A stretch of 64,000 nucleotides of DNA, from IMG/VR virus record IMGVR_UViG_3300042257_000126, positions 9,570 through 73,569 of that record; one strand, 5' to 3'. The DNA comes from a virus. Lineage: Duplodnaviria > Caudoviricetes. The translations under genes and the position numbers were made by a program. The notes beneath the pieces were generated by a model. The model saw nothing but the letters and a program-made list of their open reading frames with translations. It did not search any database and had not been told where the DNA came from. Positions 62,142 to 62,622 of the stretch are shown here, piece by piece (position 1 is the first letter of the stretch; every line of letters starts with the position of its first letter).

Positions 62142-62558
62142 ATGAAAACTAAAGAAGAAATTTATCAATCAGCACATGACTTTTTGAACACTTTAAAAGT
62201 TGACATTGATCTCCCTTATTATGTGGATTTAGAAAACGTTGATTTTTCAGACGCGTTTAACGACATTTGTCAAATGGTTGAAGACGGGAACGGATTTGAT
62301 TGTGAAGTGATTTATTATTCCGATGCTATTGAATATCTGGCAGAGAATGATCCATCTTTGCGCGAAAGTTGCGAGCTTGCCGCAGAAATGGGATATGAAG
62401 CCGGGAACCTGAACAGCGAATTATTGGCAAGTCTTTTAAAAAGCCAGAATGTTAGGACTGAGTTTCAGGAATTGGAAGACGAAATAAACACGTTTTTTGA
62501 GGATTTACAAGACCAGTTAGACGAATTGGAAGAAGAAGAAGACGAAGAAGATTTTTAG
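62142..62558 (+). CDS. Ocr-like acidic DNA-mimic candidate
   Basis: Highly acidic and helical; VIYYSDAIEYLA; tail DELEEEEDEEDF. Confidence 0.6.
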   Translation: MKTKEEIYQSAHDFLNTLKVDIDLPYYVDLENVDFSDAFNDICQMVEDGNGFDCEVIYYSDAIEYLAENDPSLRESCELAAEMGYEAGNLNSELLASLLKSQNVRTEFQELEDEINTFFEDLQDQLDELEEEEDEEDF

Positions 62559-62622
62559 CAGTTGCAAGTCTGCATAAATTGCGAGCAGTCCCGGTTAATC
62601 CGGGATTAAACAAACTAAAAAT
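62551..62622 (+). ncRNA. twister ribozyme, type P3 permutation
   Basis: P3 ATTTTTA/TAAAAAT; P4 GCAG/CTGC with L4 TTGCAAGT; linker ATAAA; GA-GCA; P1 GTCCCGG/CCGGGAT; T^AA; pseudoknots TGC/GCA and AC/GT. Confidence 0.85.

What the first reader, a model, noticed from the sequence alone, without database searches (positions are those of the whole stretch)
62551..62622. Circularly permuted (type P3) twister ribozyme overlapping the stop codon of the Ocr-like gene
Seen: all twister elements map by eye. P3 is 62551-57/62616-22 (7 bp), P4 is GCAG/CTGC closing UUGCAAGU, the linker is AUAAA, the conserved GA is followed by GCA pairing with L4 UGC, P1 is GUCCCGG/CCGGGAU followed by UAA, and AC pairs with L4 GU. 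P2 is ACAA/UUGC with one A-C mismatch. Predicted cleavage lies between 62607 and 62608, leaving a 36-nt 5'-OH leader on the gene at 62644. P3 and P4 overlap the upstream gene's last codons and TAG, so a terminating ribosome could gate folding (inference).
Basis: partly seen in the sequence, partly recalled or inferred. Interest (0 to 1): 0.75.

Follow-up and report, generated by a model that had tools for sequence, protein, structure and literature searches.

The report
Type-P3 twister ribozyme in a phage
A short self-cutting RNA of a known but rarely seen layout (a type-P3 twister ribozyme) sits between two small genes of a bacterial virus, where it most likely cuts the shared messenger RNA in two; it is a real, well-supported example of a known family, not a new kind of element.

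Summary
It is the only ribozyme hit in the window and in the whole 73.6-kb phage record. Five distinct natural P3-type twisters found here keep 92% of 140 pair cells. 17 of 30 pairs show compensatory changes, including the T2 pseudoknot. Cleavage is predicted at U62607/A62608. That leaves the ribozyme body on the upstream mRNA and a 36-nt unstructured 5'-OH leader on the gene at 62644. In relatives the ribozyme is a conserved island, while the genes on both sides are replaced. The C-A mismatch in P2 reads U-A in four of four metagenome runs. 'Ocr-like' holds only for charge (pI 4.05); no sequence or fold match was found. Gating by a terminating ribosome remains untested inference. Verdict: a genuine new member of a known, rare family. 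The added value is a near-complete phage context. Interest is modest.

The parts
62551..62622 (+). Type-P3 twister self-cleaving ribozyme, whole motif
   Evidence: Rfam RF03154, 74.2 bits (gathering score 39.9), E 1.2e-14, model 1-73/73. My own model R1 gives 82.1 bits.
62551..62557 (+). P3 5' arm (AUUUUUA). It overlaps the last codons and the TA of the upstream stop codon.
   Evidence: It pairs with 62616-62622.
62558..62573 (+). P4 hairpin (GCAG / CUGC) with loop L4 UUGCAAGU. The loop supplies both pseudoknot strands: UGC for T2 and GU for T1.
   Evidence: P4 pair 10-21 and T2 pairs covary among five sequences.
62574..62587 (+). Linker AUAAA, P2 3' strand UUGC, and conserved GAGCA. G62583 is the likely catalytic guanine; GCA is the T2 partner.
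   Evidence: alignment. The assignment of G62583 rests on the review's table (G45 in the rice ribozyme) plus my recall of that construct's numbering.
62588..62606 (+). P1 hairpin (GUCCCGG-UUAAU-CCGGGAU). A closed P1 is what makes this the P3 permutation.
   Evidence: 7 of 10 P1 columns covary.
62607..62609 (+). Cleavage-site UAA. The scissile bond is predicted between U62607 and A62608.
   Evidence: Model positions 58-60. The U-A cleavage dinucleotide is from the review PMC5408937 (abstract and passages).
62610..62622 (+). P2 5' strand ACAA, T1 partner AC, and P3 3' arm UAAAAAU.
62608..62643 (+). 36-nt A/U-rich leader that would carry a 5'-OH after cleavage.
   Evidence: The fragment 62608-62680 has an MFE of only -3.2 kcal/mol, and 128 of 200 shuffles fold as well.
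62142..62558 (+).
   Evidence: 352 unnamed homologues. No family or fold match.
62644..62961 (+). Downstream gene, 105 aa, function unknown.
   Evidence: phrog_4874, unknown function, E 3.4e-6. No relative in IMG/VR by tblastn.

Best explanation
Window 62551-62622 (+) encodes a genuine type-P3 twister self-cleaving ribozyme. It lies in a run of small same-strand genes near the right end of a roughly 74-kb tailed phage.

Proposed mechanism (inferred from family membership and anatomy):
1. The ribozyme is transcribed as part of a polycistronic mRNA.
2. It folds into P3, P4, P2 and P1 plus the two pseudoknots T1 and T2.
3. It cuts its own backbone between U62607 and A62608.

Because of the P3 permutation the cut lies near the 3' end of the motif. 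The upstream mRNA, ending with the acidic-protein gene 62142-62558, keeps 57 of the 72 ribozyme nucleotides. It ends in the G+C-rich P1 hairpin with a 2',3'-cyclic phosphate. The downstream mRNA starts with a 5'-OH and an unstructured 36-nt A/U-rich leader before the ATG at 62644.

The likely effect is to uncouple the stability and translation of the two halves of the operon, whatever genes they hold. It would act as a portable mRNA-processing module.

Shown here: family membership, structure, covariation, and conservation amid swapped flanks. Inferred: activity in vivo, co-transcription of the flanking genes, and the consequences for mRNA fate.
For: Identity:
- RF03154 scores 74.2 bits against a gathering score of 39.9, E 1.2e-14, full length. 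There is 1 hit in the whole record and 0 in 14 control genomes.
- All conserved nucleotides of the model are present (alignment).

Structure:
- Five distinct natural P3-type twisters were aligned: window, L039, L292, L189, L190.
- 92.1% of 140 cells pair, against 34-46% with partners slid by 1-3 columns.
- 17 of 30 pairs have changes on both sides, and 0 of 500 shuffles reach any of the five measures. The covarying pairs include 2 of 3 T2 pseudoknot pairs.

Selection:
- L039 shares only 62551-62623 with the window at the DNA level (87.8% over 74 nt). The ORFs on both sides are unrelated, and a small membrane ORF further upstream is 43% identical.
- In four metagenome or metatranscriptome runs, depth peaks on bin 62576-62659.
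- Contig joints fall at the ribozyme's edges: 62150>62556, 62091>62550, 62153>62551, 62624>63843, 62626>62958, 62648>62963.
- C62582 reads T at full depth in 4 of 4 runs, which turns the C-A mismatch into U-A.

Context:
- No terminator-like site lies on the + strand between the two genes.
- In 4 of 4 P3-type loci first found, a start codon follows 8-21 nt after P3. In L292 the gap is 23 nt.
- After cleavage the leader is unstructured, and P1 sits one nucleotide from the new 3' end.

Literature:
- Processing of polycistronic transcripts has been proposed for bacterial hammerhead and twister ribozymes (PMC6765202, passages).
Against: - No cleavage assay and no read-level RNA ends were available.
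- The one RNA run laid (X16) is held as contigs, which cannot show ends, and DNA may be present in it.
- The window's own copy carries a C-A mismatch in P2 next to the active site, which could slow it. L039 has the same mismatch.
- In one variant seen in runs X7 and X16, the letters before 62556 differ, so the P3 5' arm would pair at only about 3 of 7 positions if the 3' arm is unchanged. P3 may therefore be dispensable, or that copy may be impaired.
- In E. coli reporters, cleavage by a P3-format twister in a 5' UTR with a free ribosome-binding site did not change expression or mRNA level (PMC5052635, section 5). An effect of cleavage alone on mRNA fate is therefore not guaranteed.
- Promoters and transcript ends are unknown. 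The sigma-70 scan found no more sites than shuffles (20 against 17.5 +/- 5.0).
Confidence: 0.8

Rival explanations
1. Cleavage-activated translation. The P3 3' arm (62616-22) and P2/T1 strands hold the downstream leader in the ribozyme fold. Self-cleavage turns these 13 mostly A-U pairs into an intermolecular duplex that falls apart, which frees the initiation region of the gene at 62644. The ribozyme would then be mainly a translational on-switch for the downstream gene.
For: - A start codon follows P3 by 8-23 nt in 5 of 5 P3-type loci.
- In the two Clostridia contigs L189 and L190, a GGAG-type ribosome-binding sequence straddles the P3 3' arm.
- An engineered env-9 P3 twister with the ribosome-binding site placed in P3 gave about 100-fold more reporter when active than when inactive (PMC5052635, section 5).
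Against: - In the window the P3 3' arm lies 22-28 nt before the ATG and no Shine-Dalgarno sequence is present. Little of the initiation region is masked.
- With the ribosome-binding site left free, cleavage had no effect in the same study.
- This reading is not exclusive of the best explanation.
Confidence: 0.3
2. Ribosome-gated cleavage. A ribosome terminating at TAG 62556-58 covers P3 and P4 and blocks folding. Cleavage would then happen only when, or after, the upstream gene is not being translated, which couples mRNA processing to translation.
For: - The stop codon lies inside P3/P4 in the window.
- The stop overlaps the first ribozyme nucleotide in L039 and ends one nucleotide before it in L292.
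- A deletion variant in runs X7 and X16 keeps a six-codon mini-ORF that ends at the same TAG.
Against: - The stop position relative to P3 is not fixed. The stop codon's last base lies at the base before the ribozyme (L292), at its first base (L039) or at its eighth base (window).
- L189 and L190 have no convincing upstream ORF.
- Tight packing of phage genes explains the adjacency without any gating.
- Nothing here tests it.
Confidence: 0.15
3. The conserved 72-nt island matters mainly as DNA. It would be a shared homology patch at which related phages exchange gene cassettes, and the RNA activity would be incidental.
For: Joints between contig variants cluster at both edges of the ribozyme, as they do at other conserved intergenic patches such as 63192>63530. 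The flanking genes differ among relatives.
Against: - A pure DNA homology patch would not show compensatory changes that keep RNA helices and a pseudoknot.
- It would not repair an RNA mismatch (C62582>T).
- It would not match a ribozyme covariance model at E 1e-14.
Confidence: 0.05
4. Chance resemblance or a dead relic with no activity.
For: There is a C-A mismatch in P2 beside the active site, and there are no activity data.
Against: - E 1.2e-14 with every conserved position present.
- Conservation at 88% identity where the flanks share no detectable DNA similarity.
- Covariation among five sequences.
Confidence: 0.03

Closest known systems
Type-P3 twister ribozymes (Rfam RF03154; env-9 is the studied example)
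   Same: It has the same permutation: the strand enters and leaves through P3, P1 is a closed hairpin, and there is no P5. It has the same conserved nucleotides, the same two pseudoknots and the same UAA cleavage site. The Rfam consensus is close even in the A/U-rich P3 and the uugu/acaa P2.
   Different: This copy has a C-A mismatch in P2, and four of four metagenome runs read U there. Its setting is now visible: between two small genes of a 92%-complete phage genome. The type was reported from only nine motifs in environmental sequences (PMC5052635, section 5). The primary paper (Roth 2014) is not held, so I could not check what context it reported.
Type-P1 twister ribozymes of phages and bacteria (Rfam RF03160)
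   Same: The catalytic core and L4 sequence are the same. 36 IMG/VR loci share the P4-linker-P2-GAGnA core. These also sit just 5' of genes: 23 of 25 distinct loci have an ATG-ORF of 40 aa or more within 70 nt, against 26% of 7200 random positions.
   Different: In type P1 the cut is at the 5' end of the motif, so the ribozyme body stays on the downstream mRNA. In type P3 it stays on the upstream mRNA and the downstream leader is left bare.
Engineered P3-format twister switches (Felletti et al. 2016, PMC5052635)
   Same: A P3 twister placed directly before a gene. Cleavage releases the P3 3' strand with the leader.
   Different: The engineered constructs hide a Shine-Dalgarno site in P3. The window has none there. 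The natural Clostridia copies L189 and L190 do have one.
Ocr (phage T7 gp0.3) and other acidic DNA-mimic anti-restriction proteins
   Same: The upstream gene product is small and very acidic (pI 4.05), with a poly-Glu/Asp tail.
   Different: There is no sequence or fold similarity to any solved structure and no family assignment. The link between this gene and the ribozyme is not conserved: 0 of 80 IMG/VR loci encoding its relatives carry a P3 twister within 2.5 kb.

Membership tests
Twister ribozyme, type P3 (Rfam RF03154) | Covariance-model score at or above the curated gathering score, over the full model | tested here: met
   74.2 bits against 39.9, E 1.2e-14, positions 1-73 of 73.
Twister ribozyme, type P3 (Rfam RF03154) | Essential stems P1, P2 and P4 (listed as essential in review PMC5408937) | tested here: met
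   P1 has 7 bp, P4 has 4 bp, and P2 has 3 bp plus a C-A mismatch. Paired in 90-98% of cells per helix across five sequences, with covariation in each.
Twister ribozyme, type P3 (Rfam RF03154) | Two pseudoknots, T1 and T2, between loop L4 and the two internal loops | tested here: met
   T2: U63 G64 C65 with G85 C86 A87. T1: G68 U69 with A14 C15 (62614-15). Both are 100% paired in five sequences. 2 of 3 T2 pairs covary; T1 never varies.
Twister ribozyme, type P3 (Rfam RF03154) | Conserved core nucleotides: L4 CAAG, the AAA linker, the G-A after P2, and UAA with A 3' of the scissile bond | tested here: met
   All upper-case consensus positions of the model are matched (alignment).
Twister ribozyme, type P3 (Rfam RF03154) | Permutation: termini in P3 and a closed P1 hairpin | tested here: met
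   P3 62551-57/62616-22 is the outermost helix. P1 is closed by the loop UUAAU.
Twister ribozyme, type P3 (Rfam RF03154) | Site-specific self-cleavage at the U-A step, giving a 2',3'-cyclic phosphate and a 5'-OH | not testable with these tools
   The only RNA data are contigs, which cannot show ends.
Ocr-type DNA-mimic anti-restriction protein (for the upstream gene) | Sequence or fold similarity to Ocr | tested here: not met
   The phmmer search against PDB chains gave only two weak, unrelated rows (E 0.28 and 0.75). Foldseek with the AlphaFold model (pLDDT 79.6) gave 0 of 126 rows at E <= 0.001 and no Ocr among the rows shown.
Ocr-type DNA-mimic anti-restriction protein (for the upstream gene) | Strong net negative charge on a small protein | tested here: met
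   138 aa, pI 4.05, 41 Asp+Glu against 6 Lys+Arg.

The most novel reading that the evidence does not exclude
In this lineage of wastewater, landfill and oil-field phages, the P3 twister may be a portable 'cistron insulator'. It would be kept at a fixed module boundary of an operon of small genes while the genes on either side are freely exchanged. On this reading the rare P3 permutation is selected because it puts the folded ribozyme on the 3' end of the upstream mRNA as a protective cap and leaves the downstream gene a bare leader that needs no Shine-Dalgarno sequence. Ribosomes terminating at the P3 arm would set the timing of the cut. One RNA-library contig whose match to the window begins exactly at A62608, preceded by unrelated sequence, could then be a trace of the cleaved 5'-OH end being joined to another RNA.
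Probability: 0.2. Interest if true: 0.55.

Novelty: new member of a known kind. Interest (0 to 1): 0.3.

Why it matters
The biological role of twister ribozymes in bacteria and phages is still described as unknown (PMC6765202; PMC5408937 section 13; PMC10085705). The P3 form was reported as the least represented, with nine environmental motifs (PMC5052635).

This copy places a P3 twister in a near-complete phage genome, flush between a stop codon and the next start codon. Population data show the ribozyme is kept while its neighbours are replaced. That gives a concrete, testable model system for two questions:
- Does self-cleavage uncouple the cistrons of a phage operon?
- Does the choice of permutation decide which mRNA half keeps the folded RNA?

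It does not change what is known about the ribozyme class itself.

Tried and rejected
- **N4-like virion RNA polymerase with hairpin promoters.** I considered this as the source of the transcript. The 2882-aa ORF shows only a sub-threshold ART-PolyVal match and a PHROG of unknown function, so I dropped the idea.
- **Strict P3-shaped pattern scans.** IMG/VR gave only a chance hit in a type-P1 locus (L010). The metagenome scan gave 1 true P3 twister among 31 loci. The genome scan gave 2 among 19 loci.
- **A 14-mer from the 3' half.** It returned more than 117 loci, and none had twister features on screening. The pattern was too short to be useful.
- **Relatives of the downstream protein.** None was found in IMG/VR.
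- **DNA similarity of 61400-64000 to deposited phages.** There was no match.
- **My own model R1.** It missed the divergent variant in L290-L292 that Rfam's model finds.
- **RF03154 in 151 genomes of the class of the L189 genome.** Only the centre genome itself matched, 1 of 151.
- **Parts of the window without cover in the RNA run X16** (62156-62491 and 62660-62911). These say nothing, because that run's variant lacks or replaces those genes.
- **Roth et al. 2014.** The paper could not be read. Supplements of the papers used were not consulted.

Full report
**1. Observation**

| Element | Sequence and position |
|---|---|
| P3 | AUUUUUA 62551-57 / UAAAAAU 62616-22 |
| P4 | GCAG 62558-61 / CUGC 62570-73, around the loop UUGCAAGU |
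| Linker | AUAAA 62574-78 |
| P2 | UUGC 62579-82 / ACAA 62610-13, with a C62582-A62610 mismatch |
| Conserved loop | GAGCA 62583-87 |
| P1 | GUCCCGG 62588-94 / CCGGGAU 62600-06 |
| Cleavage site | UAA 62607-09 |
| T1 partner | AC 62614-15 |

The upstream ORF's stop codon TAG is 62556-58. The next ATG is at 62644, 36 nt after A62608.

Rfam cmscan of the whole window at gathering thresholds gives three matches: two tRNAs, and twister-P3 (RF03154) at exactly 62551-62622 on the + strand. The twister match scores 74.2 bits against a cut-off of 39.9, with E 1.2e-14, model positions 1-73 of 73, and only the P2 mismatch marked non-standard.

- At E <= 1 there are 5 matches in the window and no other ribozyme.
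- The whole 73,569-nt virus record has this one hit. The window is bases 9570-73569 of that record, which is 92% complete by CheckV and linear. The same search rang in 0 of 14 control genomes.
- The 9.7 kb to the left of the window adds no ribozyme at E <= 0.5.
- The 72-mer folds better than 200 of 200 dinucleotide shuffles (z -3.99). The nested minimum-energy fold is an alternative hairpin, not the native fold. That is unsurprising for a double-pseudoknot RNA, and the centroid shows P3 and P1.

**2. What it is**

The genome is a tailed phage. PHROG matches include a portal protein, a large terminase subunit, virion structural proteins and an exonuclease. Pfam finds primase-type and methyltransferase domains.

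The ribozyme lies in a run of small + strand genes (about 52-64 kb of the window) that have no Shine-Dalgarno sites. They share an A/T-rich motif (TTTAAAA...) 10-20 nt before their ATGs. No terminator-like site lies on the + strand between the two flanking genes.

Relatives were hard to find with strict patterns:
- The core pattern gives 36 IMG/VR loci, but all of them are type-P1 layouts.
- 3 of 4 tested score 44-54 bits on Rfam's twister-P1 model, below its cut-off of 67.2.
- A P3-shaped pattern gave only a chance hit in IMG/VR.
- It gave one true P3 twister among 31 metagenome loci (L039).
- It gave two among 19 genome loci (L189 and L190, both Clostridia MAG contigs).
- Rfam confirms these three at 75.4, 55.3 and 45.4 bits.

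A repeated hairpin element in the window led to three further IMG/VR records. Each carries one identical, divergent P3 twister at 41.8 bits, just over the cut-off.

With five distinct sequences (alignment A4) I counted the full structure, including both pseudoknots:
- 92.1% of 140 cells form standard pairs, against 34-46% when partners are slid by 1-3 columns.
- 17 of 30 pairs change on both sides.
- 0 of 500 shuffles reach any of the five measures.
- T2 covaries at 2 of 3 pairs (UGC/GCA in the window, UAC/GUA in three sequences, UGG/CCA in L292).
- T1 never varies.
- P3 is the weakest helix, at 79% paired.

With only five sequences these numbers are indicative, not a formal test.

**3. Population evidence**

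23 of the 24 sequencing runs listed hold part of 61400-63900. They come mostly from wastewater, and also from landfill, crude-oil and aquatic metagenomes. One is an RNA library. Four runs were laid on the window as contigs.

- C62582 reads T at full depth in 4 of 4 runs. This converts the C-A mismatch to the U-A pair of the Rfam consensus.
- No other difference inside 62551-62622 is among the 40 rows shown, but 271 further rows were not shown.
- Depth peaks on bin 62576-62659. In X7 it is 361.6, against 98.6 and 48.7 in the neighbouring bins. In X13 it is 65.2 against 23.2 and 25.2.
- Contig joints sit at the two edges of the ribozyme: 62150>62556, 62091>62550 and 62153>62551 on the left; 62624>63843, 62626>62958 and 62648>63963 on the right... 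(see correction: the last joint is 62648>62963).

The same picture comes from L039. BLASTN finds only 62551-62623 in common (87.8% over 74 nt). The adjacent ORFs on both sides have no relative in the window, and a small membrane ORF further upstream is 43% identical to the one at 61186-61371. L292 has the same module order: membrane ORF, one or two variable genes, ribozyme, one gene, hairpin element.

So the ribozyme is a conserved island at a fixed place in an operon whose cargo genes are exchanged.

Results that count against a tidy story:
- One variant (runs X7 and X16) replaces the letters before 62556. The P3 5' arm would then pair at about 3 of 7 positions if the 3' arm is unchanged.
- An X10 variant has a different L4 region.
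- L039 keeps the same C-A mismatch as the window.

**4. How it most likely works**

The cleavage site follows from the family. The review describes a U-A cleavage dinucleotide with a conserved adenine 3' of the cut (PMC5408937, abstract and passages). The model's UAA aligns to 62607-09. The register is fixed by the G62581-C62611 pair of P2.

In the P3 permutation the cut is near the 3' end of the motif.
- The upstream RNA keeps 57 of 72 nt and ends one nucleotide after the 7-bp P1 hairpin.
- The downstream RNA begins with 5'-OH A62608. It is essentially unstructured: MFE -3.2 kcal/mol for 62608-62680, and 128 of 200 shuffles fold as well.

My best reading is that the ribozyme cuts the polycistronic mRNA between the two cistrons. 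That uncouples their stability and translation regardless of which genes are present. This matches what reviews propose for bacterial hammerhead and twister ribozymes (PMC6765202).

The position just 5' of a start codon is general:
- 5 of 5 P3-type loci have an ATG 8-23 nt after P3.
- 23 of 25 distinct type-P1 phage loci have an ATG-ORF of 40 aa or more within 70 nt, against 26% of 7200 random same-strand positions. This is a crude ORF rule that counts ATG only.

Rival readings:
- Cleavage-dependent unmasking of the leader. In L189 and L190 a GGAG site straddles the P3 3' arm. An engineered env-9 P3 twister with the ribosome-binding site in P3 gave about 100-fold activation. With that site left free, however, cleavage had no effect on expression or mRNA level in E. 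coli (PMC5052635, section 5).
The upstream stop lies within about 8 nt of the ribozyme's 5' edge in 3 of 3 phage lineages, but at different offsets.
- A DNA-level role as a recombination patch. The RNA covariation contradicts this.

**5. The 'Ocr-like' label**

The upstream gene is 62142-62558. My early calls started it 15 nt too early, at 62127, which added five residues.

- The product is 138 aa, pI 4.05, with 41 acidic and 6 basic residues and a poly-Glu/Asp tail.
- It has 352 unnamed homologues at E <= 0.001 among 381 candidates.
- It has no Pfam or PHROG family and no significant PDB sequence match.
- The AlphaFold model is all-alpha (pLDDT 79.6), with 0 of 126 Foldseek rows at E <= 0.001.
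- Among 80 IMG/VR loci encoding its relatives, 0 carry a P3 twister within 2.5 kb. One (L210) has a type-P1 core about 440 nt upstream.

The gene is 'Ocr-like' in charge only, and its pairing with the ribozyme is incidental.

**6. Comparison and novelty**

The element meets every sequence-level criterion of RF03154. Only the cleavage activity is untested. It is therefore a new member of a known kind.

The P3 type is described as the least represented, with nine environmental motifs (PMC5052635). A full-text search for 'twister-P3' finds one unrelated paper, and the searches found no description of this phage context. In 151 genomes of the class of the L189 genome, only the centre genome matched.

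- A near-complete phage context.
- The conserved-island pattern amid exchanged genes.
- A divergent variant with a flipped T2 pair and changes at normally conserved positions.
- Natural copies with a ribosome-binding site in P3.

I could not read Roth et al. 2014 or any supplements, and these may already list similar sequences.

**7. Verdict**

The finding is a genuine new member of a known family. Interest is 0.3.

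Noticed in passing
window 59719-59774, 60757-60801, 63842-63886 (partial fourth copy 60016-60035); also L287, L289, L292: A repeated element of about 45 nt sits 25-45 nt before gene starts: GGCUGAAUCCG..ACC[stem]UGAyCGGAG[stem]GGCArCCACAAAU. Its stem changes in a compensatory way between copies (CCGGG/CCCGG against CCCUG/CAGGG). UCCG upstream of the stem is complementary to CGGA in the loop, so a pseudoknot is possible. The 20-nt core matches 3 times in the window against 0 expected. 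No Rfam family matches; there is only a sub-threshold CRISPR-DR7 hit on the minus strand of copy 1. Folding energies are not better than shuffles. It may be a promoter, a processing site or an RNA element that bounds the operon holding the ribozyme.
   Followed up: partly
L290, L291, L292 (ribozyme at L292:1501-1567); L287:6419-6485, L288:7829-7895: Three IMG/VR relatives carry a divergent P3 twister that barely passes Rfam (41.8 against 39.9 bits). L4 reads UUGGCAGU instead of UUGCAAGU. GAG becomes GAC with a compensating change in L4, so T2 is flipped. The linker is one nucleotide shorter and P1 is entirely different. Whether it cleaves is unknown. A similar L4 appears in a contig variant of run X10.
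   Followed up: partly
window 62608 (run X16, table 7): In the one RNA library laid, a contig's match to the window begins exactly at A62608, the predicted 5'-OH nucleotide. It is preceded by about 255 nt of unrelated sequence. This is a single contig from one study, and only 22 of 102 loose ends were shown, so it is a weak hint at most. It could be a recombinant relative, a template switch at a cleaved end, or a joined RNA.
   Followed up: no
L189:913-992 and L190:5152-5230 (Clostridia MAG contigs): These are natural P3-type twisters (55.3 and 45.4 bits). The P3 3' arm overlaps a GGAG-type ribosome-binding site 11-14 nt before a small ORF. They are natural counterparts of the engineered 'P3 SD' twister switches.
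   Followed up: partly
L002-L037 (IMG/VR), e.g. L005:615-666, L010:4504-4555, L002:4891-4956: About 25 distinct short type-P1 twisters occur in phage contigs. Many have no P3, and P1 has only 4 bp. They share the window ribozyme's L4 and core, and they sit just upstream of genes. Rfam's twister-P1 model scores them at 44-54 bits, below its cut-off of 67.2, in 3 of 4 loci tested. None was called at gathering threshold in 7 loci. Standard annotation would miss them.
   Followed up: partly
window 63874-64000 and 60023-60149: The last 127 nt of the record are 100% identical to 60023-60149, which is the start of the 178-aa gene at 60034 and its upstream patch (D3). The record therefore ends inside a repeat. 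This may be an assembly break or a duplicated gene module.
   Followed up: no
window 59687-63941, upstream of small + strand genes: The start codons of the small genes lack Shine-Dalgarno sequences. They share a TTTAAAA-type motif 10-20 nt upstream and often begin ATGAAAAC (families D1, D2, D4 and D5). From recall, this style of initiation region is typical of Bacteroidota hosts. The host was not determined.
   Followed up: no
window 18172-26820 (-): A giant 2882-aa ORF has only a sub-threshold ART-PolyVal match (27.7 against 31.2 bits) and a PHROG of unknown function. It may be a polyvalent, injected protein.
   Followed up: no
window 3334-3407 and 3412-3484 (+): Two adjacent tRNA genes (46.1 and 60.9 bits).
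   Followed up: no
L020:8480-8551 and L020:7724-7753: One IMG/VR contig holds a type-P5 twister (40.6 bits against a cut-off of 37.6) about 750 nt from a second twister core found by pattern. This fits the reported clustering of self-cleaving ribozymes.
   Followed up: no
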